IMG/VR virus record: IMGVR_UViG_2832349384_000006
Coordinates: 14,238-78,237 of that record
Origin: a virus
Taxonomy: Duplodnaviria > Caudoviricetes
Length of the DNA: 64,000 nt
Strand: one strand, 5' to 3'
In this document: piece after piece, positions 1-63,453 of the stretch
How the letters are laid out: each line of letters opens with the position of its first letter
How positions within the stretch are numbered: the stretch's first letter is position 1
Program-made: the position numbers and the translations under genes
The notes under the pieces: generated by a model
The model's input: only the letters and a program-made list of their open reading frames with translations
Database searches by the model: none
What the model was told of the DNA's origin: nothing

Positions 1-47
1 CTTAACGGGCCTGAACACCCCGTGCCTGCTGCGCCACAGGAGAGAAC

Positions 48-644: not shown

Positions 645-930
645 GACGATGAAAATTTACCGCAGCAAAAAATGGTTGGCGGCCGTCGGGCAAATCGAAC
701 AATGCGTGTTGTGTGGAAACTGGGGAACCCAGGTCGCGCACCGGAACGAGGGGAAGGGCATGGGGCTGAAAACTGACGACTGCGCCACCGCGGCGCTCTG
801 CGTTTGTTGCCACACCGCGATCGATAACGGCAAAGATCTCTCGCGCGAAGAGCGGCGTCAGATGATGGACCGCGCGATCGTTTTGACGATTATTCAAATC
901 GCCCGCCGCGGGCTGGTGGTGCCGCAATGA
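634..930 (+). CDS. Small Cys/His-rich nin-region protein (DUF1364/HNH-like); start may be ATG 649
   Basis: CxxC...AH...CxxCH pattern (CVLCG, VAHRN, LCVCCH). Confidence 0.7.
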   Translation: MRGETMKIYRSKKWLAAVGQIEQCVLCGNWGTQVAHRNEGKGMGLKTDDCATAALCVCCHTAIDNGKDLSREERRQMMDRAIVLTIIQIARRGLVVPQ

Positions 931-1619
931 TGAACGCACAGCAATTGGAATATATACGGCTGGAGTTAACCAATGCGCTGCATGATGACTCTGGCAGCAC
1001 TAAGGGACAACTCCAGGCATTTATCGAGCACCCGCCGGCTGATAAAAATCACTATCCGCGCCAGCGTATCCACAAGGTCGAACTGGAGGGTGAGCGCTGG
1101 GCCGATGCGGAAAATTCCGCCGTTTATGCGCTCGAAACACGCAGCCGCAGGCAACCAATGCCACCGATCAACGATCATGTCTTTTCGTCGTGCGCGTGGC
1201 GCCGCGCCGTCATGACGCTTGGCGAACATCAAATTGCATGGCTGCGCTACTGCTACGGCTTCGATCTGCAGTTCAAATACCAGACCGAAATTTGCCAGCA
1301 CGTGTGGGAGAGCTACCAGGCGTACAAAGTCGGCAAGCGCCTCCAGTCAAAAATTATTAAGCGCCTGGTGTCGTTAGTCTGGCTGGCCGTGCAGGAAACG
1401 GCGGCAAAAAACAAAAATGAGACGTACAAGGAATACGCCGGCAGCGCACTGGCCAACTTGATGAGCGTCGACCGTTCAACCTGGTCACGGGTATATGCGC
1501 CGCACTGGGCGCGCCTGAAAGAGGTCGCGGAGAAAATGGACGTAGAAGCCCTGCAGCTAGTGTCGTCAAGTCGCGAAGAGATTATTTATCGGTTGGAATT
1601 GCAAAATGCAACAAAATAG
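927..1619 (+). CDS. Late antitermination protein Q
   Basis: WRRAV...WLRYCYG motif of lambdoid Q proteins; followed directly by a pR'-like promoter and terminator. Confidence 0.85.
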   Translation: MMNAQQLEYIRLELTNALHDDSGSTKGQLQAFIEHPPADKNHYPRQRIHKVELEGERWADAENSAVYALETRSRRQPMPPINDHVFSSCAWRRAVMTLGEHQIAWLRYCYGFDLQFKYQTEICQHVWESYQAYKVGKRLQSKIIKRLVSLVWLAVQETAAKNKNETYKEYAGSALANLMSVDRSTWSRVYAPHWARLKEVAEKMDVEALQLVSSSREEIIYRLELQNATK

Positions 1620-1627
1620 GGCATATT
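1599..1627 (+). promoter_or_regulatory. Late promoter pR'
   Basis: TTGCAA (1599-1604), 17-bp spacer, CATATT (1622-1627) overlapping the end of Q. Confidence 0.75.
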
Positions 1628-1661
1628 CGACGCTAATTTGATAAATTGCCGAAATTGTGTT

Positions 1662-1686
1662 AACCCGCCCGCGCGCGGGTTTTTTA
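1662..1686 (+). terminator. tR' intrinsic terminator
   Basis: AACCCGC-6nt-GCGGGTT stem followed by a T run, ~35 nt after pR'. Confidence 0.85.
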
Positions 1687-1736
1687 TTTCCCGCTCCAGA
1701 TGGGCGCCCCGGAAAGTTGCCGCTCTCCGGGGCTGT

Positions 1737-2510
1737 ATGCCCGCGTCAACAGTCACGAGCACACCCGCCTATTGGAGTGCCGAGACCTTGAAAAATCACG
1801 TTAATGCAGTTGTATCACGCGCCAGCGGAAAGCCGGCGCCGATCGTCTACGCTGGCGAAACCGTCGGTTTTGGATGTGACGATCTCCACGTAGCAACGAT
1901 CCCGGTTTGGCTTGCCCGCCTGGTGATCAGCCATTTTCACTACAGCAAGCGCGTAGTGAACAACTCCTATTTGCATCTGGGTATTTTTGACGGCCGCGAG
2001 CTGGTGGGCGTCATGCAGTGGGGCTACGCGATGAACCCGAGCAGCGGGGCGCGCGTCGTGACCGGCACCGGCAACCGCGAATACATGGAGTTAAACCGGC
2101 TCTGGGTGCATGATCGGATGCCGCGCAATACTGAATCACGCGCAATCAGCTATGCGCTGAAAACCATCAAGTTGCTCTATCCCGCTGTGGATTGGGTGCA
2201 GACGTTCGCCGACGAACGCTGTGGCCGGTTCGGCGTCGTGTATCAGGCGAGCAATTTCGATTACGTCGGCAGCCATCAAACGACGTTCTACGAGCTCGAC
2301 GGCGAGTGGTATCACAAGATCGCCATGACGACGAAAGGGCGCAAGGCTGGCGCCCGTGGTAATTTCCTGCAGGCGAACGCACACCGCGCCACCGCCCACA
2401 CATTTAATCAGTTCAGGTATATCCGCTTTCTAAATAAGCGGGCGCGCAGGCGGCTAAACACGAAGCTGTTCAGCCCGAAGCCATACCCGAAACCTGAGAA
2501 TTCACCCTAG
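1737..2510 (+). CDS. mom: Mu Mom-like adenine-modification protein (GNAT fold)
   Basis: Starts MPAS like Mu Mom; [41 protein letters not shown] and [18 protein letters not shown] closely match Mu Mom as recalled. Confidence 0.92.
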
Positions 2511-2536
2511 CCCGGCAGCCGCCGGGTTTTCTTTTT
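2511..2536 (+). terminator. Intrinsic terminator after mom
   Basis: CCCGGC-AGCC-GCCGGG stem plus TTTTCTTTTT. Confidence 0.7.
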
Positions 2537-2576
2537 CATCACCCGACGATCGGGCCAGCCCCGACAGGGGGAGGAC

Positions 2577-2912
2577 ATGAAAATGCCTGATAAAAACCCC
2601 GACTTGTGGGCGCAACTGATTGCATGGCTTGCCGCTCACAAGGAGGGCGGCGGCTATGCGGCCACGGCTGCGCTTATGGCGTTACTGCGCAGCGCATACG
2701 TTGGCCAGCAAGGATGGACGCGGCGACTAATTGACGCCGCCATGTGCGCGATGGTCGCGTATTTCATCAAAGATTGCCTGGCTGCGATCGGCTGGGATTC
2801 CACATATGCCTATCTCGGCAGCATGTTTATCGGCTATGCCGGCGTCGACTATTTCGGAAATATGCTGCGCCGCATCGCCAGCAGCCGCACAGGCTCCCCA
2901 CGACAGGAATAA
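2577..2912 (+). CDS. Lambda S-family holin with dual start (Met-Lys-Met)
   Basis: MKMP start as in lambda S107/S105; IDAAMCA and FIGYAGVD motifs; sdi-like hairpin CCCC-GACA-GGGG (2559-2570) overlapping the RBS. Confidence 0.9.
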   Translation: MKMPDKNPDLWAQLIAWLAAHKEGGGYAATAALMALLRSAYVGQQGWTRRLIDAAMCAMVAYFIKDCLAAIGWDSTYAYLGSMFIGYAGVDYFGNMLRRIASSRTGSPRQE

Positions 2913-2915
2913 TTC

Positions 2916-3539
2916 ATGACTCAGGATCAATTCAAAGAGGCGGCCGGTATTGGCGCCGGACTGGCCGCGCGCTGGTTTCCACATCTGGAGGCGACGTTCG
3001 CCGAGTTTGGCATCACCTCGCCGGTGGCGCAGGCAATGTTCATTGCTCAGGTAGGGCATGAGTCGGCCGGTTTCACCGCGGTCGCGGAATCGTTCAACTA
3101 CAGCGTGGCCGGCTTGCAATCGACCTTTGGCAAGCGGCTAACTGCGGAGCAATGCAAAATGCTTGGGCGCCAGCGCGGCGAATCGGTGGTGCCGGGGAAC
3201 CGCCAGGCGGCGATCGCGAATCTCGTCTACGGCGGCCGCCTGGGTAACAAATCTACCGGGGATGGTTGGAAATACCGCGGGCGCGGCCTGATCCAGATCA
3301 CCGGCGCCGACAATTATCGCGCCTGCAGCGCCGGCATCAAAACCGATTTGCTGTTGGTGCCTGACCTGCTGGAAAAAGACGAGTACGCGATGCGCTCCGC
3401 TGGCTGGTTCTGGAAATCGCGGAATTGTGGCCAGTACGCCGGCGACGTCGAACGGGTGACGCTGCTGATCAACGGCGGCAATAACGGGCTGGCAGACCGC
3501 AAAGAACGATTTGAGCGTGCGCGCCAGGCACTGGCATGA
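2916..3539 (+). CDS. Glycoside hydrolase family 19 endolysin
   Basis: AMFIAQVGHES, GDGWKYRGRGLIQITG and INGGNNGLADR motifs; lies after the holin. Confidence 0.92.
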   Translation: MTQDQFKEAAGIGAGLAARWFPHLEATFAEFGITSPVAQAMFIAQVGHESAGFTAVAESFNYSVAGLQSTFGKRLTAEQCKMLGRQRGESVVPGNRQAAIANLVYGGRLGNKSTGDGWKYRGRGLIQITGADNYRACSAGIKTDLLLVPDLLEKDEYAMRSAGWFWKSRNCGQYAGDVERVTLLINGGNNGLADRKERFERARQALA

Positions 3540-3922
3540 GCGGCTGGCTCTCAAAACTGGCCGGCGGGGGAATGTTGCTCCTGCTGGTGGCGTCAATTTG
3601 CCTCGGTGGTTACAGCTCGCTGCTGTCGCACCGGTTGGAGCTGGCACGCCAGCAGGTTGCAGAGCAGAAAAAGACGCTGGCGCAGCAGGCAGGACTGATC
3701 ACCACACTGCGCGCGGATGACGCCCGTAATCGCGCAATGATGGCTGAACAGCAACGGAGAGAGCAGCAGCTACGCCAGCAGGGCGAAAACTACCAGAGGA
3801 AATATCAGGATGCCATTAAAAATGACGAGTGCGCCCGCCGCACTGCTCCTGGTGCTGTTCTTGACCTCCTGCGCGGAACGGACACCACCGCCGCCGGCGC
3901 CGCTCGTGCTGTTTCCCCCTGA
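3536..3922 (+). CDS. i-spanin (Rz-like)
   Basis: N-terminal TM helix plus coiled coil; follows the endolysin. Confidence 0.85.
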   Translation: MSGWLSKLAGGGMLLLLVASICLGGYSSLLSHRLELARQQVAEQKKTLAQQAGLITTLRADDARNRAMMAEQQRREQQLRQQGENYQRKYQDAIKNDECARRTAPGAVLDLLRGTDTTAAGAARAVSP

Positions 3923-27669: not shown

Positions 27670-27685
27670 CTGTATGTATATACAG
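27670..27685 (+). promoter_or_regulatory. LexA (SOS) box upstream of the umuD'-like gene
   Basis: CTGTATGTATATACAG fits CTG-N10-CAG and overlaps a TATACT -10. Confidence 0.9.
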
Positions 27686-27708
27686 TGTTTGTTGCGAGGT
27701 AAAACACC

Positions 27709-28104
27709 ATGGGAATGCCAAAATTTGCTAGCCCGGCAGCAGACTACGTTGAGCGCCGCTTGAGCCTTGACGAGATCTGCATTTCAAAGCCGAGCGCTAC
27801 TTATCTGCTTCGCGCCGCTGGCCAGGCTATGGCGGTCGGTATCCACGCTGACGCGTTGCTTGTTGTCGATTCGTCGGCGACGCCGGTACACGGCAGCATT
27901 ATCGTAGTTGCGGAGGAAGGCGCGCATGTGTTGCGCCGGCTTCGTCTTTACCCGTATCGCGCGCTTGAGTTTCTGGACGGCTCGGGTCTGGAAACTGAAC
28001 TCGGTAACGAAGACTCGGAAGAAGGGATCGAGGTGTTCGGCGTGGTGATGTACTGCGTCAATGATATGCGGTCGTGCGAGTGGGATGATCTGCCGGTTAT
28101 TTGA
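27709..28104 (+). CDS. UmuD'-like (HumD-like) S24-fold protein, apparently non-catalytic
   Basis: FASPAADYVE and LLVVDSS motifs; GQAM where UmuD has GDSM; LRRL where UmuD has VKKL. Confidence 0.85.
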   Translation: MGMPKFASPAADYVERRLSLDEICISKPSATYLLRAAGQAMAVGIHADALLVVDSSATPVHGSIIVVAEEGAHVLRRLRLYPYRALEFLDGSGLETELGNEDSEEGIEVFGVVMYCVNDMRSCEWDDLPVI

Positions 28105-28324: not shown

Positions 28325-28343
28325 TCGTATTCGGTCTTTTTTT
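28325..28343 (+). repeat. att core copy 1 (TCGTATTCGGTCTTTTTTT)
   Basis: Exact 19-bp direct repeat with 63435-63453. Confidence 0.9.
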
Positions 28344-28385: not shown

Positions 28386-29477
28386 TTATCCCGTCCCTTG
28401 TTCCACTCTGTTGCACCCTTTTTTACTCTGTGCCGCCACTTTGTCGCCACTCCCGGCGGCAGCCAATGCCAGCGGGTTTAATATTAACGCCTCTTCCAAG
28501 TGGTCTGGCGCAAAGTGCGCATAGCGCATTGTTACCCTGATATCCGAATGCCCCAAAATACGCTGCAGCACAATTATATTGCCGCCACCCATCATAAAGT
28601 GACTGGCGAACGTATGGCGTAGTACGTGCGTCATTTGGCCATCGGGTAAATCTATCCCAGCGAGCTTTATTACCCGGTAAAACTGTTTATAGCAGGGGGC
28701 GAACTCTCGCCCCTGCATATCCATGAGATCATCATACAGTTCGTTAGAAATAGGCACCGTTCGGTTTTTCTTGCCTTTGGTATTGGTGAAAGTGATTTTG
28801 TATTTTGATATCTGAGAACGGCGTAACTTTGCCGCCTCATTCCAACGGGCGCCGGTTGAAAGACATATTCTGACAATTAACGTTAATTCTGGGTTGCCGT
28901 GCGCCCGGCAGGCGCGCATCAAGTCGTTAAGTTGTTCAGCCGTGAGCCAGGCCATTTCTTTTTCTGGCTGATCGAACTCCCTGATGTTTTCCAGTGGGTT
29001 GGGTAATGACCATTCGCCCAGGCGCTTTAGCTCATTGAATACGGCCCGTAAAAATGCCTGCTCGCAGTTAACCGTTCCGGTGCTTACCTTTCTGGTTTCT
29101 AGGCTCACGCTGTAGCCATTATCAATTTCACCACGTAGGCGTTGATCGCGGTAGTGCGCCCAATCTTTGGCGGTTATTGCGGAGGCCACCGGATCACCCA
29201 TTCCACTGCAGATAATGTTCAATTTCCCCAGCCGGCCTTTTTTATCGTTTAGTGAACAGCCATGCAGCTTGTACCACAGATCGATCAACTCACTGAGTTT
29301 GCGGCGGTCTTCTTTCTCTCCCAACCAGGGCTTTTCCTTGGCCTGGTCAAGCTGGTATTGCTCAAACGCAATAGCTTCACCCTTCGTTGTGAATTGTTTG
29401 CGGATGCGCTTGCCGCGCCTTCCGTTGATGTAGAACTCACAAAGCCATTTCCCTGATTCCAGCCTTCTTACAGCCAT
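28386..29477 (-). CDS. int: Tyrosine integrase, 186/HP1 type
   Basis: MAVRRLESGKWLCEFY...GKRIRKQF start; STGARWNEA (R), HVLRHTFASH, LGHSDIRVTMRYAH catalytic motifs. Confidence 0.95.
   Translation of the reverse strand: MAVRRLESGKWLCEFYINGRRGKRIRKQFTTKGEAIAFEQYQLDQAKEKPWLGEKEDRRKLSELIDLWYKLHGCSLNDKKGRLGKLNIICSGMGDPVASAITAKDWAHYRDQRLRGEIDNGYSVSLETRKVSTGTVNCEQAFLRAVFNELKRLGEWSLPNPLENIREFDQPEKEMAWLTAEQLNDLMRACRAHGNPELTLIVRICLSTGARWNEAAKLRRSQISKYKITFTNTKGKKNRTVPISNELYDDLMDMQGREFAPCYKQFYRVIKLAGIDLPDGQMTHVLRHTFASHFMMGGGNIIVLQRILGHSDIRVTMRYAHFAPDHLEEALILNPLALAAAGSGDKVAAQSKKGCNRVEQGTG
28430..28451. repeat. Candidate integrase arm-type sites (left)
   Basis: TGCCGCCACT and TGTCGCCACT in tandem; TGTCGCCACTT recurs near the right att at ~63370. 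Confidence 0.6.
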
Positions 29478-29507
29478 AGCCGCCCACCCACAATAAACAG
29501 ATATACA

Positions 29508-29536
29508 AAAATACTGTATATATTAACAGTATTCAA
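29508..29536 (-). promoter_or_regulatory. int promoter with a LexA box filling the spacer
   Basis: Minus strand TTGAAT-17 nt-TATTTT; CTGTATATATTAACAG at 29514-29529 inside TACTG...CAGTA. Confidence 0.85.
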
Positions 29537-29563
29537 TGTTTGATATGGGGGCGGGCATACATG

Positions 29564-29584
29564 AAAAACCCGCCGGATGGCGGG
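29564..29584 (-). terminator. Terminator between ogr and int
   Basis: Minus strand CCCGCC-ATCC-GGCGGG-TTTTT. Confidence 0.8.
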
Positions 29585-29593
29585 CTGGTGATC

Positions 29594-29812
29594 TTAAAAA
29601 TTGATGGTTTGTTGGCCGGATTTTGAGGGGTGTGGCGGGGCCGGGTTTACTTCACCGGGGCGAACAATTGAGCGCACAAATGTTTCCATGGTGATAAAAA
29701 CATGACTGCAGTTCACGTTTGTGCATTGGTTATAACGCTCTTTTGTGGTCGTGGTTATTTCATTGCTGCTGCGGGTGTGTGCGGCATGACCACACAAAGG
29801 GCATCTCATCAT
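29594..29812 (-). CDS. ogr: Ogr/Delta zinc-finger late activator
   Basis: MMRCPLCGHAAHTRSS...ERYNQCTNVNCSHVF. Confidence 0.95.
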   Translation of the reverse strand: MMRCPLCGHAAHTRSSNEITTTTKERYNQCTNVNCSHVFITMETFVRSIVRPGEVNPAPPHPSKSGQQTINF

Positions 29813-29886
29813 GGCTATTCGCTCCTGCATTACCGATGCGTATACAATAGCATGATGTTTGCAAAAGCGAATAATAAACTTGCATT

Positions 29887-30975
29887 TTACTCCATATCCA
29901 AATCGGATATTTTCACTTCCAGCTCTAACGCCGTGGTAAAGCCGCCATCAGCTATGGTGTGCGTTACGGTGGTGATAATCCATTCTGCCGCGTCTATTTG
30001 CCGCTTGAACCCGCTGACCTTCACGGGGATCTCCGGGTAAAGCTCTGCCCGGCCCTTGGCCAACTGGATAGAAAACTGCGCGGCTCCGCGCTGGATACGC
30101 TCCCAATTGGCCTTGGCCGCCCGGCGGGCATTGGATGCATTGGCATAGGTGCGGCTCAGCACCAACACGTTTTCATCCGTCCCCACTAGGTACTCCCCTT
30201 GCTTTGGCTCCTCCTTTTTCTTGGTGGTTGTTTTCCTCTTTCTCTTCACCTTAACGCTTTGCGGCGCTGCGGCGCGCGTATCCAGCCAACTGGCCGAAAC
30301 CCCCGTGTAGGCGTTCCTGTCGGCCAGGCTAAACTGGTGGCTATCGCCATCACTGCGTTTTATCGTCACTGCTGGCAGCGCCTTACCGCTGGCGCTCACA
30401 CCTTGCCCCTGGCGGATAAACAGTAGATTGCCGTATTTTACAGCCGCAATGGCGCCCACACGCTGCGCCAGCCGCATAAGAAAGCTGCCGTCTGATTCAT
30501 TGGTTTGATCAATGTGCTCGATAGCGACGGCCGCCATTTGTTCGCTGACGTCCGATTTCAGATTATGACGGCCGGCCATTTCATTAACGATCGCGCCGAT
30601 GGTGGTTTTTGAGTAGGACTTTTCCCGCCTGATATTCAGCGTTTGGCGAAAATCGGCACTGCGGCCGCGCAACACCACTTTATCTGGTGCGCCAGAATGT
30701 TCTATTTCATCAATGATGAACGTGCCCTTGTTAATCAGCGGCTCGTTTTTCCAACCCAATAATAGCGCCAACTCCACACCGCGCGATGGCAGATCAATGG
30801 CGCCGTCGCTATCATCAAGCTCTATATCCAACTGGTCAGCCTCAAACCCGCGATTATCCGTCATGGTCATAGATATCATACGGCCTTCCAGCCTGGTGGT
30901 AATATCCTTGCCTGAAAGCGTGACGCGGAATGCGGGGGCGCTGTCTCTGCCGCTTAGCCAGTCTGGGGTGTTCAC
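29887..30975 (-). CDS. P2 gpD-like tail/baseplate hub protein
   Basis: TDNRGFEADQLDIELDD and IDQTNESD motifs. Confidence 0.93.
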   Translation of the reverse strand: MNTPDWLSGRDSAPAFRVTLSGKDITTRLEGRMISMTMTDNRGFEADQLDIELDDSDGAIDLPSRGVELALLLGWKNEPLINKGTFIIDEIEHSGAPDKVVLRGRSADFRQTLNIRREKSYSKTTIGAIVNEMAGRHNLKSDVSEQMAAVAIEHIDQTNESDGSFLMRLAQRVGAIAAVKYGNLLFIRQGQGVSASGKALPAVTIKRSDGDSHQFSLADRNAYTGVSASWLDTRAAAPQSVKVKRKRKTTTKKKEEPKQGEYLVGTDENVLVLSRTYANASNARRAAKANWERIQRGAAQFSIQLAKGRAELYPEIPVKVSGFKRQIDAAEWIITTVTHTIADGGFTTALELEVKISDLDME

Positions 30976-52779: not shown

Positions 52780-52965
52780 CTAACCCCCTTCGGCATTGTA
52801 AAAAATTTCGTCACTTTCTTGGTCACTCAGCACGCTGTTGGTTAAATCTGTAATCATCCCCAGAGCTAATTTCATGTCATGTTCGTTTTGCTGTGCGATC
52901 AATACCAATTCGGCAATTAATCGAATTCTTTCTAGAGTTTGTTTTTGTTTTTCAACCGCTTCCAT
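52780..52965 (-). CDS. Tum-like SOS antirepressor
   Basis: LERIRLIAEL...DMKLALGMI resembles 186 Tum; same locus as tum; LexA box upstream. Confidence 0.75.
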   Translation of the reverse strand: MEAVEKQKQTLERIRLIAELVLIAQQNEHDMKLALGMITDLTNSVLSDQESDEIFYNAEGG

Positions 52966-52983
52966 GTTAACCCCTTATTGGTA

Positions 52984-52999
52984 CTGTTTATATATACAG
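52984..52999 (-). promoter_or_regulatory. LexA box upstream of the tum-like gene
   Basis: CTGTTTATATATACAG within TACTG...CAGT. Confidence 0.9.
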
Positions 53000-53288: not shown

Positions 53289-53519
53289 TTAATTCGGATT
53301 ATATCTAACGTATACATGAAGCCCGCTTGCCCCTTCTTCATAGACACGCCATTTATATTGATAGCGGCGTATCCAGTCATTGGCTTGTTGTGGGCAGAAA
53401 TGGTGATTCACTTTCACCAATTCATGAATGAAATCGCGTACTGATACGGTGAATTTACCTGTTACATCTCGCTTGATAGCGGCGTTAAACGCGTGTGGAA
53501 TTTCGTAATCTCGTGCCAT
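53289..53519 (-). CDS. Small conserved phage protein (76 aa), function unknown
   Basis: RBS GGGAGGG; YEI..AF..AIK...TV...DF..EL.KVN...QAN.WI...NPN pattern common in enterobacterial prophages. Confidence 0.7.
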   Translation of the reverse strand: MARDYEIPHAFNAAIKRDVTGKFTVSVRDFIHELVKVNHHFCPQQANDWIRRYQYKWRVYEEGASGLHVYVRYNPN

Positions 53520-53560
53520 GTTCCCTCCCAACTAGTTGGTCGGAGTATAACCATAAAGAA

Positions 53561-53576
53561 CTGTACAAATAAACAG
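53561..53576 (-). promoter_or_regulatory. LexA box upstream of the 76-aa gene
   Basis: CTGTACAAATAAACAG; TATACT -10-like element downstream on the minus strand. Confidence 0.75.
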
Positions 53577-53659: not shown

Positions 53660-56008
53660 TTATGACTGTGATCGATGTGTTTCACGCCGGCCGTGCAAAT
53701 AGCCGTTGCTATCGGCCCGGTAAACCACATTCGAAACTTTCACCGTTTTCCCCAATTCCAGGCGCTCAACATCTGCGGCTGATGGGTTTGCGACACCTGC
53801 ATTCATCAATTCCCTGCGGATCCGCTCTCGTATCTGTTCTGTTTTCTTGGCATGGCTGCGCAATAACGCCTCCATTTCTGTTTGTGGCCCGGTAACCCTC
53901 GCGCGCAGGTGCTCAAACCGGGTTAATGCATCCGGTTTTGTGCGGCGTCGAACGGGTAATGTTTGGCGCTCGCCGGCATCGTGCTGGCGCGTTTTCGGCT
54001 TCGTCCGCCTTTCTGATGCATCACCACGCACCCGGCGGAGTAGCAGACGGCGTTCCTTGGCTGTCATTTGTGCAAAATTCAGCGCCGACAGCTCGCCATC
54101 CGGGGGATCTTCACCCGGCGGGGCCATCCTCCCACCCGGATCCCCCGTACAGTTATTGACAGAACTCCGAGAGGGCGCGGGCGCGCCCTTAAGGTCAACT
54201 TCCAAAACCGGCGCTTTTTTCGGCACTATTTTCCATTGGGTTACACGGGTGATAATGGGAACGTCCTGCCCAACTGACGGTGAGAACACACCACGCACCC
54301 GGATCACGTCTTCGCCGTATCCGTTGGATTCCTCGGCCGTTTCGTAATAGGTACGAACAACCAGATCATCACGTTTAACGAACGGCCCGCCCTGGGCGTT
54401 GATGTATTCCGCCCAGCGGCCAAAGTCGGCAGCATCATGCACCGCTGCAAATTCAACGCTAAGGCCGATCGCGGTTTCGTGGTCGGCCATCCGGCGTAGC
54501 TCGCGGTAAACGGTCACCGGGGCGCCACCGATAAACTGGAACTGCCGGATACGCCATCGCGCCGCCCAGGCGGAAACGGCGGCGGCCGTTTCTTTCAGTG
54601 GTTTGCCGCTCTCGTCGTCAAGCTCATCATCCAGTTGATAGCCGTCTATATTTTTCGAAATGTATTTAGCGATATAGCCCGTGGCGCTGCCCTGGTCAGG
54701 ATCGATAGCCTCAGCGTGAAAGCGCGCCTTACGCGCCTTATCGCTGTTTAGCTCTATTGCATCCTCTTGCGTGGCGTAGTCGCGCATGATTTCGCGGACT
54801 TGCCCGGCATCTTCCGGGCGCATAAACATCAGCATGTGCCAGTGCGGCGTGGCGTCGTGATGCGGCTCTGCAACCCGGATGCCGAAAATTCTCAAATCGT
54901 CGCGGTGCAATTTGGCGCGGACTCGTGACCAAACGGCGCGTAAATACGCCTGCGTTGCTGCCGGGCTGGCGCCATTCCACTTGCGGTTGCGGTGGCCGTG
55001 TTTATTGGTGGCGTGGAATTTTGAAGGGGCCGTAATCGTGTAAAACTCACCGATATAGCCCAGCTCGTTGCAGATATCTTCAAAGCCGCGTATGCGCGTC
55101 ATTAATTCACAACGGCGAATCGCAGGATTGGCTACGCTGCCGTCGTATTTATCGATCAGGCTGATCCGGTTTCCCGCTTCGTCTTCCAGCTCCATGCCTT
55201 TCAGAAATTCGCGGGTGCGGCGCTTCTGTTCGCGCCATTCGGTGATCGTTACCTTACTGGCATAGGGGGTAGCTTTCTTGCTGACGTTCGCCATTGCAAT
55301 ATGCAGGTGCTCGCGCCATTCGGCGGACGTGCGGCGCAGGCGGTTTAGCCACCACGCAGGCGATAACATACGGGCAACGGCCGGCCCCGCATCCTCTTCG
55401 CTGAAAAAGCGGTTACTCAGCTTTTCCCAAAGCGGCGGCGACTGGCGAAAGTCGCGCGTGATATGGCCGGCGCGGCGATACAGCAGCCACAGGGTTTTCA
55501 GCTCACTGGCACCCTGGCATTCGCCATCAACAAGGCCCAACTCCTGTGCGATGAATGCCGCGATATCTTCTGCCAGCGCTTCAACATCGCTGCGCGACAT
55601 GTCGGCCAGTTGGTTATACCTGGCCAAATATCGTGAGTTATCGGCGGTCATTTTTGATAACCGGTATTGTTTATTAACCAGTTCCAGGCGCGGTAATGCC
55701 CGCTTAACAAAGTTCAGCGTCAAGTAGGCATGTGCTCGCTGGATCCCGTGCGATTGTTCAAGTTTAAAAAAGTGCGAATTTACCTGGCGCTTCACTAACT
55801 CCGGTTGGCGGTTCAGGCTCTCGAAAGCCGCTTCAATGTCAGCATTGATGCGATCACGTTTATTTTGCTCTTCGGCGCTAACAAAAGGGGAGCCAACGCC
55901 CTGGCGCGGGGCGTTCCAAGAGTAGGCCCATTCGAAAGCAGGCGCGCCGCTGCCCGGATAGGGTAGCGGCGGCGTTGGCGCTTGGCGGCTGCGGGTGCTC
56001 TGCGTCAC
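53660..56008 (-). CDS. Rolling-circle replication initiator gpA
   Basis: FYTITAPSKFH, EPHHDATPHWH (HUH), GYIAKYISKNIDG (two Tyr), WRIRQFQF. Confidence 0.95.
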   Translation of the reverse strand: MTQSTRSRQAPTPPLPYPGSGAPAFEWAYSWNAPRQGVGSPFVSAEEQNKRDRINADIEAAFESLNRQPELVKRQVNSHFFKLEQSHGIQRAHAYLTLNFVKRALPRLELVNKQYRLSKMTADNSRYLARYNQLADMSRSDVEALAEDIAAFIAQELGLVDGECQGASELKTLWLLYRRAGHITRDFRQSPPLWEKLSNRFFSEEDAGPAVARMLSPAWWLNRLRRTSAEWREHLHIAMANVSKKATPYASKVTITEWREQKRRTREFLKGMELEDEAGNRISLIDKYDGSVANPAIRRCELMTRIRGFEDICNELGYIGEFYTITAPSKFHATNKHGHRNRKWNGASPAATQAYLRAVWSRVRAKLHRDDLRIFGIRVAEPHHDATPHWHMLMFMRPEDAGQVREIMRDYATQEDAIELNSDKARKARFHAEAIDPDQGSATGYIAKYISKNIDGYQLDDELDDESGKPLKETAAAVSAWAARWRIRQFQFIGGAPVTVYRELRRMADHETAIGLSVEFAAVHDAADFGRWAEYINAQGGPFVKRDDLVVRTYYETAEESNGYGEDVIRVRGVFSPSVGQDVPIITRVTQWKIVPKKAPVLEVDLKGAPAPSRSSVNNCTGDPGGRMAPPGEDPPDGELSALNFAQMTAKERRLLLRRVRGDASERRTKPKTRQHDAGERQTLPVRRRTKPDALTRFEHLRARVTGPQTEMEALLRSHAKKTEQIRERIRRELMNAGVANPSAADVERLELGKTVKVSNVVYRADSNGYLHGRRETHRSQS
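54147..54176 (-). other. Replication origin (ori) within gene A
   Basis: Minus strand CTCGGAGTTCTGTCAATAACTGTAC resembles the P2 ori/nick region (CTCG/GAGTCCTGTCAATAACTGT) as recalled. Confidence 0.75.
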
Positions 56009-56733
56009 TCTTGATTACCCGGTGCGGCTGCCAGCATGGCTTCGTAAATAGCGCGATGCTGCACAATAAAAAGATCGTCTTCAACTTCGTCCCATAGAAC
56101 GTCTTCACAATCTCCCGCAGCGGCGAGCATTTCTGGCGTGGGCTCAATGGGTACCAACTTGAACCCTTCCGGTGCTGACGGCGCGTTTACGTCCGTCGAA
56201 ATGCCGGCACTCCTCATTGCCGCGCATACGGCATCAGTTGGTGTTGCAGCCTCCGAGGAACCTATGGGCTCAGGTTCATCACCATAAACATCGGCGTGCC
56301 ATCGCCCTTCATATTCTGGCGTTACAGCTATCCGATGCTTCATCATTAAATGTGGCAGTCTTTCCGCCAATACATCTCGCGCTGCTGGGTTTAATCCTGA
56401 TGGTTGTCCTACGAGCAACGGCAAAATACGGCTTAACAAGCTCTGCTGTATTTCTTCCGGTGTTTCTGGTTCGCCAGGCTGTCCAAGTCCTGCGCAAAAG
56501 TCGGATATCTCACTGGTAATCAGCTTGACCGCATCTGTGTCCCTTATGGCCCCCGCAGCAAGAACCACCGGAAGTCCTATCTGTAATTCTTCGTGTTTAA
56601 CCTTTTTTAACAAACTGCAAATAAGATCCGCTTCCTCGCGATTGTAATAACCTCTCACGGTGTAGATGCCCGCTTTTAACGTCCTGCGCTTCCGGCGGTT
56701 CCTGAATTTTGTAAACAAACTGAACAGATTCAT
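56005..56733 (-). CDS. Hypothetical mosaic phage protein
   Basis: NinX/DUF2591-like segment (HRIAV...W.A...ATPTDAVCAAM) plus C-terminal VPIEPTPEML...YEAMLAAAP motif. Confidence 0.6.
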   Translation of the reverse strand: MNLFSLFTKFRNRRKRRTLKAGIYTVRGYYNREEADLICSLLKKVKHEELQIGLPVVLAAGAIRDTDAVKLITSEISDFCAGLGQPGEPETPEEIQQSLLSRILPLLVGQPSGLNPAARDVLAERLPHLMMKHRIAVTPEYEGRWHADVYGDEPEPIGSSEAATPTDAVCAAMRSAGISTDVNAPSAPEGFKLVPIEPTPEMLAAAGDCEDVLWDEVEDDLFIVQHRAIYEAMLAAAPGNQE

Positions 56734-59277: not shown

Positions 59278-59279
59278 GG

Positions 59280-59498
59280 TTATCTCCTGATGTGCCGTGA
59301 TTTGGCCTCGTGAAGCTCCTGGCAACTGGCACAGCGGGATGCGCCGGGAACGGCAAGGCGGCGCGCTTCTGGGATCTGCGCGTCGCACTCTTCACAAAGA
59401 AATGCAGAAGGGGCGGCCGGTTTCCGGCGCGCCTGTTCGATGTGAGCCGCCAATATCAACTGCTGGCGCTCTTGTTCGATATCCATTGAATCGGCCAT
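59280..59498 (-). CDS. TraR/DksA C4 zinc-finger protein
   Basis: CEECDAQIPEARR...CASCQ. Confidence 0.92.
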   Translation of the reverse strand: MADSMDIEQERQQLILAAHIEQARRKPAAPSAFLCEECDAQIPEARRLAVPGASRCASCQELHEAKSRHIRR

Positions 59499-60630: not shown

Positions 60631-61140
60631 TCAATTCATACCCAGCGATGCGCCAACAGCCGTGATGGCGTCAACGGTAGATGCCATTGTTGGGTTAGCG
60701 TGGATGCGTGACTGCATCGCCAGCCCGGCCAACGTCATGTAACGAATGCCGGCGTTAACGCTTTCGCGAATGGCCCCGCGCCGTGTGGCGGTCATGCTGC
60801 AGTTGGTTACAGCTTCCGCTGCTACCTTTCCGATCTCCGACGTGGCGCGCAGAACATAGGATTCCAGCTTGCAATCTGATAGCTCGTTGATCGGCACGCA
60901 TGGTTGGCAATGCAGTTGCGCCAACATGCCATCAATCAGCGTCGGGTCTTCGGTCAGGTCGGTCAGTATCAGCAACTCTTCCACGGTCAGGCGGTGCGGC
61001 TGATCAGGGTTCAGCTTGTTACGCAGCACCTGGGCAGAAAGGCCAGCATCGGCACTCAACTGCTTGATGTTGTGCTTATTCGCGAAAATGCGGCATGCAT
61101 CCGCGTAGTGGGTTTGTTTAGAGACTTTGTAATCAAACAT
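60631..61140 (-). CDS. 186 CII-like lysogeny activator
   Basis: MFDYKVSKQ...LRNKLNPDQPHRLT...DPTLIDGMLAQLHC. Confidence 0.93.
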   Translation of the reverse strand: MFDYKVSKQTHYADACRIFANKHNIKQLSADAGLSAQVLRNKLNPDQPHRLTVEELLILTDLTEDPTLIDGMLAQLHCQPCVPINELSDCKLESYVLRATSEIGKVAAEAVTNCSMTATRRGAIRESVNAGIRYMTLAGLAMQSRIHANPTMASTVDAITAVGASLGMN

Positions 61141-61171: not shown

Positions 61172-61573
61172 TTAACCGCGGATATAGCGACACTTGATCG
61201 CAGCCTGGCGATTTTTTTCACGCCACGCTTCCAGGTTAATCAGGGCATTGCCGTGCTTGGTCATTGTAATTTCTTCCACCTCACCGGTTTTACGGTTGCG
61301 GCGGTTCTGGGTCACGGTAGTGGTTGGAGTAGGGGCCAGCAGCACAACGCCGTTAGCGATCCACTTCTCCAGCACTGACGCGCTGATGCCGTTAACTGCG
61401 GCAAAGTCCTCTTTGGACATTGTGGGGGATGTGTGAATAGCCACAGCACGCTCTACCGCCTGCTGAATGGCGCCGCTCAGATCCGGCAGCAGCATGGTTG
61501 CAACATTTGCAATCAGGTCATGTGGATTTGGCGGGATTTCGATGCCGTTGGCATTTGCAATCTCATGAGACAT
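61172..61573 (-). CDS. Cox/Apl-like repressor and excisionase
   Basis: RBS AAGGAG; HTH SKEDFAAVNGIS...WIANG; ALINLEAW; divergent from cI. Confidence 0.8.
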   Translation of the reverse strand: MSHEIANANGIEIPPNPHDLIANVATMLLPDLSGAIQQAVERAVAIHTSPTMSKEDFAAVNGISASVLEKWIANGVVLLAPTPTTTVTQNRRNRKTGEVEEITMTKHGNALINLEAWREKNRQAAIKCRYIRG

Positions 61574-61686: not shown

Positions 61687-62532
61687 ATGACTGATAAATC
61701 AGAAGATTCAGCCGCTATCGTTGAGCGGTTATCATCCGCTTATGGGGTCACATCCCAGCGGGCATTAGCAAAAAGTCTCGATCTTCCCCCTAATAACGTC
61801 AGCTCATGGATTCAACGTGGCAGCGTACCTGGTAATGCCATCATCAAGTGCGCTTTGGACACTGGTGCAGATTTGCGTTGGTTAGTTACTGGAAAGTTTG
61901 AAAATGCAAATATTGAGATTGGCAAGTCAAAGATTGACGGCCGTGATTTGTATGCGCAAATTCAGGCATCCGGAGGTAAACCAGTACTTCGGCGCATGTT
62001 GGATGCCTACGGGTTTAGAACTCAGAAAGAAATGGGGGATTACCTAAATATTTCTACTGCAACGATCAGCACATGGGTAAGGCGTGAACACTTTCCTGGT
62101 GATGTGGTTATTGCCTGCGCATTAGATACTGGTGTATCTCTTTTGTGGTTGGCTACTGGGCAGGGTATGCCTGGAAATCCTGATGCAATATCTTATGAAC
62201 CGATTTTTTCTTCAATCCCTCGGCTTTCCATTGCATCTGGTTCGCTTGTAGATCTTGGATCTTGGGTGTGTGACCCGTCTTTCATTCCAGATAACTCAAA
62301 ATCTATACGTTTCGTTGAGCGCGGCAACTCATCTTGGTTGGTCGATTTTGAAAAAAATTTAATCGGCAATGGCTATTGGTTGCTTAATATCGATGGCGCT
62401 CATGATATTTATTCAGTGGTACGCATCCCCGGTAATAGAATCAAAGTCTCCACGGCATCCTCTGATTTCGAATGTTCAGTTGATGATGTTGAATGCATCG
62501 GGGAAATAAAAAAAACCATCGTTAATAATTGA
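61687..62532 (+). CDS. 186-type CI repressor with a tandem-duplicated N-terminal DNA-binding domain
   Basis: Two repeats of AYG...L....S.W..R...PG..I.CALDTG..L.WL.TG, then a beta-rich C-terminal domain. Confidence 0.92.
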   Translation: MTDKSEDSAAIVERLSSAYGVTSQRALAKSLDLPPNNVSSWIQRGSVPGNAIIKCALDTGADLRWLVTGKFENANIEIGKSKIDGRDLYAQIQASGGKPVLRRMLDAYGFRTQKEMGDYLNISTATISTWVRREHFPGDVVIACALDTGVSLLWLATGQGMPGNPDAISYEPIFSSIPRLSIASGSLVDLGSWVCDPSFIPDNSKSIRFVERGNSSWLVDFEKNLIGNGYWLLNIDGAHDIYSVVRIPGNRIKVSTASSDFECSVDDVECIGEIKKTIVNN

Positions 62533-62541
62533 GGCTATAAC

Positions 62542-62934
62542 TTGAATATAAAATTAATAGTTCTTTCCTTGCTGCTAACTTCATTGCCTACTCTAGCCAG
62601 TGGGAAGAAAGTTCCTGCATCCATAGATAAGGCTATGCGCGACCTGAATATTAGAGAATACCGCTATGAATACCCTAACCTAAAGGTTATTTTTAATTTT
62701 GATAGGGTAACAGAGATTATTGCCCGTAGCACTATGTGGAGTGTATGCGCAACACGCTGGAACGATGGGGAAAAGTGGCCAGTTGATGCCATTCAAAAGG
62801 TAGATGTTATGAATCAGTGGGAGGTGCAAAGCTTTACATTCAAAATGAACGGAAAGGATTGTGATAAATATGGCTCCTTGAGTGACGGTGATAATGATAG
62901 GTTTTTGTCCGATCACATGAGTCAATATCCATAG
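62542..62934 (+). CDS. Secreted/periplasmic hypothetical protein (130 aa)
   Basis: RBS GAGG; Sec signal MNIKLIVLSLLLTSLPTLA; two Cys; AT-rich. Confidence 0.75.
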   Translation: MNIKLIVLSLLLTSLPTLASGKKVPASIDKAMRDLNIREYRYEYPNLKVIFNFDRVTEIIARSTMWSVCATRWNDGEKWPVDAIQKVDVMNQWEVQSFTFKMNGKDCDKYGSLSDGDNDRFLSDHMSQYP

Positions 62935-62956
62935 TGTTTTATTCTAAGGGGGGGGT

Positions 62957-63328
62957 ATGAAAAAACGTTCGTTATTATGTGTTGCATCTATTCTTATTTC
63001 ATTTCAAGCATTATCTGTTCCTGATGATTTTGTCAATCCTTTAGACTTTACCGGAACAAAAGAAGAGCGCAACGCCGTAATTCGTTATATTGAAAGGAAT
63101 GTAAAGGATAGCTTGGCTGATATTGATGTTACCGATCCAATGTCTTTGCGTTTAATGGAAAAAGCAGATCTTGATGCTTTCAAAGAGTTAACAAAAGCCA
63201 CTGATCGCGATCTGTTTGAAAAAGTTCTAAATGATTATTGTGATGAGTTGGATGTTTGTGACTATAACGCGCTTAATTTAATGTACAAAGAGCAGCTTAA
63301 AGCAAGCAAAGAAACTCTTTCATGGTGA
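62957..63328 (+). CDS. Secreted/periplasmic hypothetical protein (123 aa)
   Basis: G-rich RBS; Sec signal MKKRSLLCVASILISFQALS; CDELDVC; acidic and helical. Confidence 0.75.
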   Translation: MKKRSLLCVASILISFQALSVPDDFVNPLDFTGTKEERNAVIRYIERNVKDSLADIDVTDPMSLRLMEKADLDAFKELTKATDRDLFEKVLNDYCDELDVCDYNALNLMYKEQLKASKETLSW

Positions 63329-63343
63329 TCTTGAATTATTCTA

Positions 63344-63381
63344 TGTGGCGAAAGTCCCCGTAGTCATTTTGTCGCCACTTT
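63344..63381. repeat. Candidate integrase arm-type sites (right)
   Basis: TGTGGCGA (inverted) and TTGTCGCCACTT, matching the motif at 28430-28451. Confidence 0.6.
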
Positions 63382-63434: not shown

Positions 63435-63453
63435 TCGTATTCGGTCTTTTTTT
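63435..63453 (+). repeat. att core copy 2; partial third copy TATTCGGTCTTTT at 63500-63512
   Basis: Identical to 28325-28343. Confidence 0.9.

What the first reader, a model, noticed from the sequence alone, without database searches (positions are those of the whole stretch)
28386..29584. P2-like integrase relocated behind ogr and placed under direct LexA control
Seen: int lies downstream of ogr, co-oriented with the late tail operon and separated from it by a terminator. It has its own TTGAAT-17-TATTTT promoter whose spacer is filled by a near-perfect LexA box. cI is 32 kb away at the other end, and its operon contains no int. Known: in P2, 186 and HP1, int is in the C/cI lysogenic operon on the other side of attP; P2 is non-inducible, and 186 induces through LexA-controlled tum. 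Inference: a rewired switch in which SOS simultaneously supplies the antirepressor and the integrase for excision. It raises the question of how int is made for integration on infection (undamaged cells, or readthrough from late transcription).
Basis: partly seen in the sequence, partly recalled or inferred. Interest (0 to 1): 0.8.

Follow-up and report, generated by a model that had tools for sequence, protein, structure and literature searches.

The report
Self-contained SOS-controlled integrase cassette in P2-like phages
In one lineage of P2/186-type prophages the integrase gene has left the repressor operon, sits behind the late activator gene ogr with its own promoter, and that promoter carries a DNA-damage (LexA) operator and probably a site for the phage's lysogeny activator CII, which is an undescribed way for this phage family to time integration and excision.

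Summary
A complete 35-kb P2/186-type prophage lies between exact 19-nt direct repeats (28325-28343, 63435-63453), which are the 3' end of the small-RNA gene sdsR/ryeB. Its order is att, int, ogr, D ... A, cII, apl, then cI, cargo, att. int follows the ogr terminator. Its promoter, TTGAAT-17-TATTTT, is spanned by a LexA box matching the consensus at 18 of 20 positions.

This is not a one-off. Every Int relative of about 69% identity or more has the same promoter block and the sdsR att site: 24 species genomes and 45 IMG/VR contigs. Where the upstream DNA is intact (22 genomes and 40 contigs), ogr precedes int. Ninety-two more distant relatives keep the canonical cI-int operon and have no box. 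On the Int tree the lineage forms one clade.

I add one feature. The repeat ATGTATG-N13-CAAACAT abuts the -35 element and is one mismatch from the phage 186 CII operator at pE. It is conserved across the clade. It is otherwise confined to the cII start and, in some lineages, the ogr promoter.

My reading is an autonomous int cassette repressed by LexA (likely) and activated by CII (about even odds). That would answer how Int is made on infection. No deposited phage in the collection searched, and no paper I found, shows this layout. Nothing has been tested at the bench.

The parts
28325..28343 (+). att core on the int side (TCGTATTCGGTCTTTTTTT), which is the last bases of sdsR/ryeB. Identity to sdsR extends back to about 28320.
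   Evidence: Exact 19-nt direct repeat with 63435-63453. In relatives the same core continues into a full SdsR/RyeB and SraC/RyeA locus (Rfam). A full sdsR sits at the contig start.
28386..29477 (-). int: tyrosine integrase of the P2/186 family, 363 aa, intact.
   Evidence: Pfam Int_N 1.4e-31 and Phage_integrase 4.3e-22. Catalytic R-K-H-R-H-Y residues are invariant in the alignment with 186 and PSP3 Int.
28431..28451 (+). Two arm-type Int site candidates (TGCCGCCACT, TGTCGCCACT) inside the 3' end of int.
   Evidence: The pattern YGYCGCCAYT has 5 hits in the window, 3 of them flanking att. The 186 arm consensus YAYCGCCAYTY comes from the record annotation. The count alone is not significant (10 of 100 shuffles reach it); the placement is suggestive.
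29508..29536 (-). int core promoter: -35 TTGAAT (29536->29531), 17-nt spacer, -10 TATTTT (29513->29508).
   Evidence: Read from the sequence. The -10 keeps TAnnnT and the -35 keeps TTGAnn or TTTAnn in most relatives. Only 8 of 12 positions match the sigma-70 consensus. The transcription start is not mapped.
29512..29531 (-). LexA (SOS) box TACTGTTAATATATACAGTA, matching the consensus at 18 of 20 positions.
   Evidence: Conserved at the same place in all 22 genome loci with ogr>int, in 35 of 40 IMG/VR contigs, and in 52 of 57 distinct sequences as CTG-N10-CAG.
29536..29562 (-). Inverted repeat ATGTATG-N13-CAAACAT, a candidate CII operator abutting the -35.
   Evidence: One mismatch from the 186 pE CII site ATGTTTG-N13-CAAACAT. 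Only 3 sites with 2 or fewer mismatches occur in the window against 0.26 expected. Conserved in 20 of 24 genome loci and 32 of 42 viral loci, with variable spacer sequence.
29567..29586 (-). Intrinsic terminator after ogr.
   Evidence: 8-pair stem, 6 of them G-C, followed by a T run. Equivalent hairpins are present in most relatives.
29594..29830 (-). ogr, the late-gene activator (Ogr/Delta zinc finger).
   Evidence: Pfam PF04606, 1.1e-19.
29855..29881 (+). Second CII-operator-like repeat, in the D-ogr intergenic region (ogr promoter area).
   Evidence: 2 mismatches, N13 spacing. An equivalent site just upstream of ogr is present in L020, L089, L110, L120 and L125. It overlaps the promoter-like TGGATA-18-TATTAT.
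29887..30975 (-). gpD, the last gene of the tail operon.
   Evidence: Pfam Phage_GPD.
52780..52999 (-). LexA box (52984-52999) plus a 61-aa ORF (52780-52965), a candidate Tum-like antirepressor.
   Evidence: Exact CTGT-N8-ACAG. phrog_1993, function unknown. 25% identity over 48 aa to the 186 Tum N-terminus, pairwise E 6e-5.
53289..53576 (-). LexA box (53561-53576) plus an 80-aa ORF (53289-53531) of unknown function.
   Evidence: phrog_3893. No similarity to Tum.
60631..61140 (-). cII, 169 aa from the ATG at 61140.
   Evidence: Pfam Phage_CP76, 8e-41. 54% identity to 186 CII over the full length.
61114..61140 (+). CII operator at the pE position (TTGTTTA-N13-CAAACAT), overlapping the cII start codon as in 186.
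   Evidence: Positional equivalents occur in four relatives and in 186 and Midge.
61172..61573 (-). apl/cox-position gene, 133 aa, presumed excisionase and lytic repressor.
   Evidence: Assigned by its position between cI and cII. phrog_3554, function unknown. 53-56% identical in relatives. No Pfam hit. The function is inferred.
61687..62532 (+). cI immunity repressor, 186 type.
   Evidence: Pfam Phage_CI_repr and Phage_CI_C.
62542..63328 (+). Two cargo ORFs (130 aa and 123 aa) after cI, in the place where canonical phages carry int.
   Evidence: No Pfam hit. phrog_3807 for the first ORF.
63370..63379 (+). Arm-type Int site candidate on the cI side of att.
63435..63453 (+). att core on the cI side.
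   Evidence: Exact repeat of 28325-28343.

Best explanation
The prophage is a complete 186-type member of the P2 family integrated at the 3' end of sdsR/ryeB. Its recombination module is a self-contained cassette of promoter, int and attP, and it lies inverted relative to 186 and PSP3. In the circular phage the order is D>ogr>terminator>P_int>int>attP<cargo<cI, where the canonical order is D>ogr>attP<int<cI.

**Shown**
- int is no longer part of the cI (pL/pE) operon, because it lies on the other side of attP.
- A terminator separates it from ogr.

**Inferred from sequence and conservation**
- int is transcribed from its own sigma-70 promoter.
- A near-consensus LexA box covers that promoter from the -35 to the -10. 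LexA would therefore keep int silent in the lysogen, and SOS would release it.
- SOS would at the same time release the prophage's two other LexA-boxed genes. One of them is a candidate Tum-like antirepressor that would inactivate CI and so switch on the apl-position excisionase gene. Int and the directionality factor would then appear together for excision.

**More tentative, about even odds**
- An inverted repeat abuts the -35 and nearly matches the phage 186 CII operator. I read it as a second input. CII, made from the early lytic operon after infection and again after induction, would boost P_int.
- That would supply Int for integration in undamaged cells, much as lambda CII activates the int promoter pI.
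For: **Layout and att**
- Layout of the prophage.
- att repeats. Identity of att as sdsR.
- Canonical comparison phages 186, PSP3 and Midge.

**Promoter, LexA box and terminator**
-.

**Survey**
- Int relatives at 70% identity or more occur in 24 species genomes. In 22 of them D>ogr>int is intact, and all 22 have the LexA box about 30 nt before the ATG.
- All 56 genome relatives at 64% identity or less are cII<cI>int with no box.
- The same split holds in IMG/VR: 40 ogr>int contigs against 36 cI>int contigs.
- In four relatives the far end is A<cII<apl cI>cargo>att, with no int.
- The ogr>int Ints form one clade, SH-aLRT 99, nested among canonical Ints.

**Phylogenetic footprint**
- The half-sites, -35, box and TAnnnT -10 are conserved while the spacer and flanks vary.

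**CII site**
- The 186 pE operator was read from the record.
- The window has three sites against 0.26 expected, at P_int, at the cII start and upstream of ogr.
- In 185 kb of viral loci, 32 sites lie at P_int and 5 elsewhere, 4 of those just upstream of ogr.
- The window CII is 54% identical to 186 CII.

**Portability**
- L112 carries the same promoter and int on the cI side, which shows that the cassette works as a movable unit.
Against: - There are no expression or binding data.
- The core promoter matches the consensus at only 8 of 12 positions, and the transcription start is unknown.
- If LexA and CII are both bound, LexA sits over the core promoter and should dominate. CII activation in undamaged cells would then need incomplete LexA occupancy.
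- The CII-like site is centred about 12 bp further upstream of the conserved -10 than it is in 186 pE.
- Half-site spacing is 12 bp in many relatives, although each phage's own pE site has 13 bp.
- Half-site variation is too small to test covariation with CII.
- One subclade (L106, L114, L115, L129) has lost both the box and the repeat and keeps an intact-looking int. Neither input is therefore indispensable.
- The Tum-like assignment rests on a weak pairwise match.
Confidence: 0.7

Rival explanations
1. The LexA box is the only real control. The upstream inverted repeat is not a CII site. It would be a chance or structural element, or a site for another protein such as IHF or the apl-position protein. 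Int for lysogenisation would come from basal leak of the LexA-repressed promoter or from SOS triggered by infection.
For: The spacing differs from pE (12 against 13 bp), and the site is displaced by about one helical turn relative to pE geometry. No covariation test is possible. LexA covers the core promoter, so an activator may be irrelevant while LexA is bound.
Against: The repeat matches the 186 CII operator at 13 of 14 positions in the window, and at 14 of 14 in at least 12 relatives. It is conserved while the DNA between the half-sites varies. In 185 kb of related loci it is almost confined to P_int and the ogr upstream region, and each phage has the same motif at its cII start.
Confidence: 0.3
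2. int is expressed mainly by read-through from ogr and the late tail operon. The LexA-boxed promoter would be minor or vestigial.
For: int is co-oriented with ogr and the tail operon. Intrinsic terminators are rarely 100% efficient. The core promoter is only a moderate match to consensus.
Against: A terminator follows ogr in most of the relatives read. In some relatives ogr and int are separated by 0.5-1 kb, in L007 and L008 including an ORF on the opposite strand, yet the promoter block stays fixed next to int. L112 keeps the block although int is not behind ogr. Late-only Int would come too late for integration and would serve no purpose for excision.
Confidence: 0.08
3. The arrangement is a decayed or rearranged prophage end with no functional meaning.
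For: Some relatives are remnants. L012 and L013 lack ogr, L013 has an IS630-like transposase ORF where ogr should be, and the L026 int reads only 50 codons from its ATG before a stop. The window itself lies in a crowded tandem array ending in an IS.
Against: The window prophage has a full P2-type gene set and an intact int with all catalytic residues. It also has exact att repeats. The same layout recurs in about 60 assemblies from at least 10 genera, with 33-40-kb proviruses.
Confidence: 0.03

Closest known systems
Coliphage 186 (Eganvirus) and PSP3: switch, int and SOS circuit
   Same: It has the same gene families: Int (57-63% identity), CI, CII (54%), an apl-position gene, A, ogr/B and D. 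It has the same pE-position CII operator overlapping the cII start. SOS acts through LexA-boxed promoters near the end of the early region, as with 186 p95-tum.
   Different: In 186 and PSP3, int is the gene after cI, is transcribed from pL/pE, and converges on ogr/B across attP. There is no LexA box or CII site at int. Here int is on the ogr side with its own LexA-boxed promoter. The att site also differs: sdsR here, tRNA-Ile for 186. The only Tum-like candidate is 61 aa and lacks the DinI-like part.
Lambda pI (CII-activated int promoter), with pRE and paQ
   Same: If the repeat is a CII site, the logic is the same: the lysogeny activator switches on the repressor promoter and a separate int promoter. 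In some lineages there would also be a site at the late activator gene. Lambda CII activating int and inhibiting late genes is stated in PMC7708051.
   Different: The CII proteins and DNA motifs are unrelated. Lambda int is not LexA-controlled, and for excision it is made from pL. The role of the ogr-upstream site is unknown and it cannot act as an antisense promoter to ogr. This is an analogy only, with no membership claimed.
LexA-repressed integron integrases (intI)
   Same: It is a tyrosine recombinase gene whose promoter is overlapped by a LexA box, so recombination is coupled to SOS (PMC3108266, PMC3948777).
   Different: It is a different recombinase subfamily with different substrates (attI/attC cassettes) and is not part of a phage life cycle.
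Stx phage Phi24B inverted int with its own promoter
   Same: It is a temperate phage whose int is inverted relative to the family norm and is transcribed from its own promoter, uncoupled from the CI-controlled operon (PMC3064807).
   Different: It is a lambdoid phage, not P2-like. Its pInt is described as constitutive and escaping repression, which allows multiple lysogeny. Here the promoter carries a repressor (LexA) site.
PhiW104 and other elements at the ryeA/ryeB (sraC/sdsR) insertion hot spot
   Same: It has the same att target, the last roughly 23 bp of ryeB/sdsR (PMC7380047 citing Balbontin 2008). Tandem occupation of the site is seen here as well.
   Different: I could not read the original paper or the PhiW104 sequence, so I do not know whether PhiW104 belongs to this Int lineage or has this layout.

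Membership tests
P2/186-family (Peduoviridae) tyrosine integrase | N-terminal arm-binding domain plus a catalytic domain with the R-K-H-R-H-Y residues, and homology to 186 and P2 Int. | tested here: met
   Pfam Int_N and Phage_integrase. 57% identity to 186 Int and 63% to PSP3 Int, with catalytic residues invariant. Nested among cI-linked P2-type Ints in the tree.
P2/186-family (Peduoviridae) tyrosine integrase | The 3' end of the gene is adjacent to attP, with arm-type sites on both sides of the core. | tested here: met
   The att core lies 43 nt after the int stop. TGYCGCCACT motifs occur at 28431, 28442 and 63370. Binding was not tested.
Canonical P2/186 lysogeny operon (int co-transcribed with the immunity repressor) | int lies immediately downstream of C/cI on the same strand, on the cI side of attP. 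| tested here: not met
   cI is followed by two cargo ORFs and att. int is at the other prophage end behind ogr. The same is true in four relatives.
LexA (SOS) regulon promoter, gammaproteobacterial type | A 20-bp box matching TACTG(TA)5CAGTA with both the CTG and CAG triplets. | tested here: met
   18 of 20 positions match. Exact CTGT-N8-ACAG is enriched, 4 against 0.46 expected. Conserved in 52 of 57 distinct relatives.
LexA (SOS) regulon promoter, gammaproteobacterial type | The box overlaps the core promoter or transcription start. | tested here: met
   The box spans the -35 to -10 interval of TTGAAT-17-TATTTT. The promoter is predicted, not mapped.
LexA (SOS) regulon promoter, gammaproteobacterial type | LexA binds the site, and transcription rises on RecA-dependent LexA cleavage. 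| not testable with these tools
   This needs EMSA or footprinting, plus a reporter or qRT-PCR in lexA(Ind-), lexA(Def) and recA hosts.
186-type CII-activated promoter (pE-like) | Inverted 7-bp half-sites ATGTTTG / CAAACAT, 20 bp centre to centre. | tested here: met
   The window has ATGTATG-N13-CAAACAT (1 mismatch, same spacing as 186 pE). Many relatives have perfect half-sites but N12 spacing.
186-type CII-activated promoter (pE-like) | The half-sites flank a weak -35, with the -10 lying 10 nt after CAAACAT. | tested here: inconclusive
   A hexamer TAATAT lies 10 nt after CAAACAT in the window, but in relatives that position is a poor -10. The conserved -10 (TAnnnT) lies 19 nt after CAAACAT, about one helical turn further.
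186-type CII-activated promoter (pE-like) | Activity depends on CII. | not testable with these tools
   This needs a reporter assay with and without CII and half-site mutants.

The most novel reading that the evidence does not exclude
P_int is a two-input promoter. The 186-type CII protein activates it for integration after infection, and LexA represses it until SOS calls for excision. In this reading a P2-family lineage has independently arrived at the lambda solution of a separate CII-dependent int promoter and added direct host SOS control. In several sub-lineages a third CII site at the ogr promoter would let CII also restrain the late activator, a functional parallel to lambda paQ.
Probability: 0.4. 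Interest if true: 0.72.

Novelty: new variant of a known kind. Interest (0 to 1): 0.6.

Why it matters
The P2/186 switch is one of the few temperate-phage circuits modelled quantitatively. Those models assume that Int is made with CI from pL/pE, and that directionality rests on Apl or Cox alone. Nilsson et al. 2011 (PMC3448106) describe int-C-cox as one co-adapted block.

This lineage is widespread in Rahnella, Ewingella, Pectobacterium, Acerihabitans, Pantoea, Erwinia, Mixta, Winslowiella, Buttiauxella and Dryocola. It breaks that block and puts Int under host SOS control, and probably under CII control too.

If confirmed, it would give three things:
- a natural experiment on why int is or is not coupled to the repressor;
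- a compact, portable SOS-gated integrase and att cassette;
- a case of convergent circuit design between the unrelated lambda and 186 CII systems.

If LexA and CII prove irrelevant, it is still a clean example of modular inversion in phage genomes, and of modest interest.

Tried and rejected
- **Rfam on the window:** no hit. The att target was identified only through relatives that keep the full sdsR/sraC locus and through the contig start.
- **Deposited phages (INPHARED collection):** among 604 records with an Int homologue, the best is 63% identical, and all those inspected are canonical.
- **Complete E. coli genomes:** only canonical-type ints at about 64% nucleotide identity, and none covers the promoter.
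- **Literature:** searches for LexA with P2-like int, Peduoviridae, and integrase promoter returned only integron, CTX, Phi24B and general papers. Balbontin 2008 is not held.
- **Tum:** the 80-aa LexA-boxed ORF has no similarity to 186 Tum. The 61-aa ORF has only a weak match.
- **Read-through from ogr as the main source of Int:** rejected because of the terminators seen in most relatives and the L112 layout.
- **Misassembly at the att ends:** rejected. There are three direct att copies in a coherent tandem array, and about 60 independent assemblies share the junction.
- **Covariation between each phage's pE site and its P_int site:** not informative, because the half-sites hardly vary.
- **Careful maximum-likelihood tree:** did not finish in the time allowed. 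The quick IQ-TREE and a FastTree were used instead.
- **Earlier notes of this scan:** nothing on this layout apart from a second reading of the same stretch.
Full report
**1. What is in the window**

The contig is 78 kb, and the window is its last 64 kb. It is a piece of an enterobacterial chromosome.
- It starts with a yebY-like gene and a complete sdsR/ryeB small-RNA gene.
- A roughly 42-kb lambdoid prophage follows. Its tail genes fill window 1-27500, and it ends with a LexA-boxed umuD-like gene at 27709-28104.
- Then comes a complete P2/186-type prophage of 35.1 kb, bounded by the exact 19-nt direct repeat TCGTATTCGGTCTTTTTTT at 28325-28343 and 63435-63453.
- To the right lie a third, degenerate att copy (63495-63512), what reads as the 3' end of a lambdoid-type int, and the start of what reads as an IS3-family transposase, where the contig ends. 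These last two were read by eye from the sequence and were not searched.

The repeat is the last bases of sdsR. In relatives the sequence after int runs straight into a full SdsR/RyeB and SraC/RyeA locus (Rfam scores of 98-139 bits). This site is a known insertion hot spot (PhiW104; PMC7380047). I see no sign of misassembly.

**2. The P2-like prophage**

From left to right on the plus strand, the prophage carries:
- att;
- int (28386-29477, minus strand);
- ogr (29594-29830, minus) and D (29887-30975, minus);
- U, T, tube, sheath, baseplate and fibre genes, lysis and head-completion genes, and M, N, O (all minus);
- P and Q (plus);
- two LexA-boxed small ORFs (minus);
- A (53660-56008, minus), methylases and an exonuclease;
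- cII (60631-61140, minus) and an apl-position gene (61172-61573, minus);
- cI (61687-62532, plus), two cargo ORFs, and att.

The head genes are about 73% identical in nucleotide sequence to Fels-2 and RE2010. The phage therefore has no close sequenced relative.

**3.

- int is intact, with Int_N and catalytic domains. R211, K234, H284, R287, H310 and Y319 are invariant against 186 and PSP3 Int.
- A terminator sits between ogr and int at 29567-29586.
- On the minus strand the int upstream region reads ...CATGTATGCCCGCCCCCATATCAAACATTGAATACTGTTAATATATACAGTATTTTTG....
- The -35 is TTGAAT (29536->29531), the spacer is 17 nt, and the -10 is TATTTT (29513->29508).
- The 20-mer TACTGTTAATATATACAGTA (29512-29531) matches the SOS-box consensus TACTG(TA)5CAGTA at 18 of 20 positions and covers the promoter from the -35 to the -10.
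- Exact CTGT-N8-ACAG occurs four times in the window against 0.46 expected. The four are at the umuD-like gene, at int, and at two small ORFs between Q and A.
- The core promoter matches consensus at only 8 of 12 positions, and the generic scan missed it.

**4. Comparison with canonical phages**

In 186, PSP3 and Midge the order is D>ogr/B>terminator>attP<int<(orf)<cI. int is thus part of the lysogenic operon and converges on ogr. Here attP lies 43 nt after the int stop, as usual. The difference is that int and attP face the other way: D>ogr>terminator>P_int>int>attP<cargo<cI. The simplest description is an inversion of an [int-attP] cassette in the ogr-cI interval. That inversion requires int to have a promoter of its own.

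**5. It is a lineage, not an accident**

*Species-representative genomes.* A scan returned 80 loci with Int relatives.
- Twenty-four loci have 70% identity or more. They come from Rahnella (7 species), Ewingella, Rouxiella, Acerihabitans, Pectobacterium, Winslowiella, Pantoea, Mixta, Erwinia, Buttiauxella, Dryocola, and a record titled Martelella.
- Twenty-two of them have D>ogr>int. The other two (L012, L013) lack ogr, and L013 has an IS630-like transposase ORF where ogr should be.
- All 22 have the LexA box 29-35 nt before the int ATG. Some read CTGG or CTGA in place of CTGT.
- All 56 loci with 64% identity or less are cII<cI>int, have no box near int, and do not use the sdsR att.

*Far ends.* In four relatives on long contigs the far end of the prophage is A<cII<apl cI>cargo>att, with no int.

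*IMG/VR.* The same split appears.
- Forty contigs are ogr>int at 69% identity or more. Thirty-five have the box.
- Thirty-six contigs are cI>int at 66% identity or less. None has it.

*Tree and conservation.*
- On a quick maximum-likelihood tree the ogr>int Ints form one clade (24 rows, SH-aLRT 99). The clade is nested among canonical Ints and lies next to the PSP3 group.
- Across 63 loci (57 distinct promoter sequences), 52 keep CTG-N10-CAG and 34 keep CTGT-N8-ACAG.
- The block CAAACAT-TGAAT-ACTGT...ATACAGTA-nnnT is conserved, while the 5' UTR and upstream flanks vary freely.
- One subclade (L106, L114, L115, L129) has lost the box.

*L112.* One contig has cI > two cargo ORFs > the same promoter block > int, on the canonical side, with ogr at the far end. 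It is nested inside the clade. The cassette is therefore portable in either orientation.

**6.

- The 27 nt directly upstream of the -35 form an inverted repeat, ATGTATG-N13-CAAACAT (29562->29536).
- The 186 record annotates the CII binding site at pE, and its sequence is ATGTTTG-N13-CAAACAT, overlapping the cII start codon.
- The window repeat differs from it at one position and has the same spacing.
- With 2 mismatches or fewer, the window has three such sites against 0.26 expected, and no shuffle out of 100 reached three. The three are:
  - the int promoter;
  - 61114-61140, exactly at the cII start, which is the pE position;
  - 29855-29881, in the D-ogr intergenic region.
- The window CII is 169 aa, co-linear with 186 CII and 54% identical to it.
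- In relatives the repeat sits 52-59 nt before the int ATG in 20 of 24 genome loci and 32 of 42 viral loci. At least 12 of these are perfect.
- In 185 kb of viral loci only five other sites exist, and four of those lie just upstream of ogr.
- The DNA between the half-sites differs in almost every lineage, which is the pattern expected of a protein-binding site.

Three caveats apply.
- Many relatives have 12-bp spacing, while their own pE sites have 13 bp.
- Relative to the conserved TAnnnT -10, the site is centred about one helical turn further upstream than in pE.
- The half-sites vary too little for a covariation test.

**7. Most likely mechanism**

*Shown.* int is physically outside the cI operon, behind a terminator, next to attP, and intact.

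*Inferred with good support.* int has its own promoter, and LexA sits on it. Int would then be off in the lysogen and come on with SOS. The prophage's other two LexA-boxed genes would come on at the same time. The 61-aa product of 52780-52965 has a weak match to the antirepressor part of 186 Tum. If it inactivates CI, the early operon would supply the apl-position excisionase, and Int and the directionality factor would coincide for excision.

*Inferred with about even odds.* CII, encoded in that same early operon, binds the repeat and stimulates P_int. This would provide Int after infection of undamaged cells. It would also reinforce Int synthesis after induction.

*Unresolved.* It is unclear how CII would work while LexA occupies the core promoter, and what the ogr-upstream site does. 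That site cannot drive antisense transcription of ogr. It overlaps the promoter-like TGGATA-18-TATTAT, so occlusion of the ogr promoter is one possibility.

**8. What is known**

- Nilsson et al. 2011 treat int, C and cox as adjacent in P2-like phages and mention no other layout (PMC3448106).
- LexA-controlled tyrosine recombinases are known for integrons (PMC3108266, PMC3948777).
- An inverted, self-promoted int is known in the lambdoid Stx phage Phi24B (PMC3064807).
- Lambda CII activates the int gene (stated in PMC7708051).
- I found no paper describing a P2-family int behind ogr, under LexA, or with a CII site.
- No deposited phage in the collection searched is more than 63% identical to this Int.
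- Whether PhiW104 belongs to the lineage could not be checked.

**9. Verdict**

The feature is a new variant of a known kind: a conserved but apparently undescribed regulatory architecture in a well-studied phage family. The evidence is sequence and comparative data only.

Noticed in passing
window 29855-29881; also L020 3599-3624, L089 2095-2121, L110 2079-2104, L120 2050-2076, L125 2117-2143: A second CII-operator-like inverted repeat lies in the D-ogr intergenic region, overlapping the likely ogr promoter. It recurs in several sub-lineages. CII might also modulate the late activator gene.
   Followed up: partly
window 1-28324 and contig bases 1-14237 (G000:C1): A roughly 42-kb lambdoid prophage occupies the same sdsR att site in tandem, between sdsR and the P2-like prophage. 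What reads as the 3' end of its own int abuts the first att copy at contig position about 650. Two unrelated phages therefore share one att core.
   Followed up: partly
window 27670-28104: A 131-aa UmuD-like S24 peptidase gene has its own exact LexA box (CTGTATGTATATACAG at 27670). It sits at the right end of the lambdoid prophage, and no umuC partner is visible before the att site.
   Followed up: no
window 63495-64000: There is a third, degenerate att copy (TTTGATATTCGGTCTTTT). It is followed by what reads as the 3' end of a lambdoid-type int and the start of an IS3-family transposase, read by eye and not searched. The contig ends here, probably because of the IS repeat.
   Followed up: partly
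window 56730-58465: The early region carries both a C-5 cytosine methylase (56730-57923) and a Dam-type N6-adenine methylase (57641-58465), plus an RNase T-like exonuclease (58462-59388). These overlapping ORF calls need start-codon refinement.
   Followed up: no
L112 (IMGVR_UViG_2846261027_000004) 1-3556: This variant of the lineage has the same CII-site and LexA-box promoter and int on the cI side, after two cargo ORFs of 326 aa and 194 aa, with ogr at the far end of the provirus.
   Followed up: partly
L106, L114, L115, L129 (IMG/VR), int upstream 100 nt: This subclade has lost both the LexA box and the CII-like repeat, while the -35-like TTGAAG and int remain. Its close relatives L104 and L113 keep the box.
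   Followed up: partly
L013 (record titled Martelella alba) and L052/L060 (record titled Vagococcus sp.): Enterobacterial-type P2-like prophage loci occur in assemblies labelled as an alphaproteobacterium and a Firmicute. These are probably contaminated or mislabelled assemblies.
   Followed up: no
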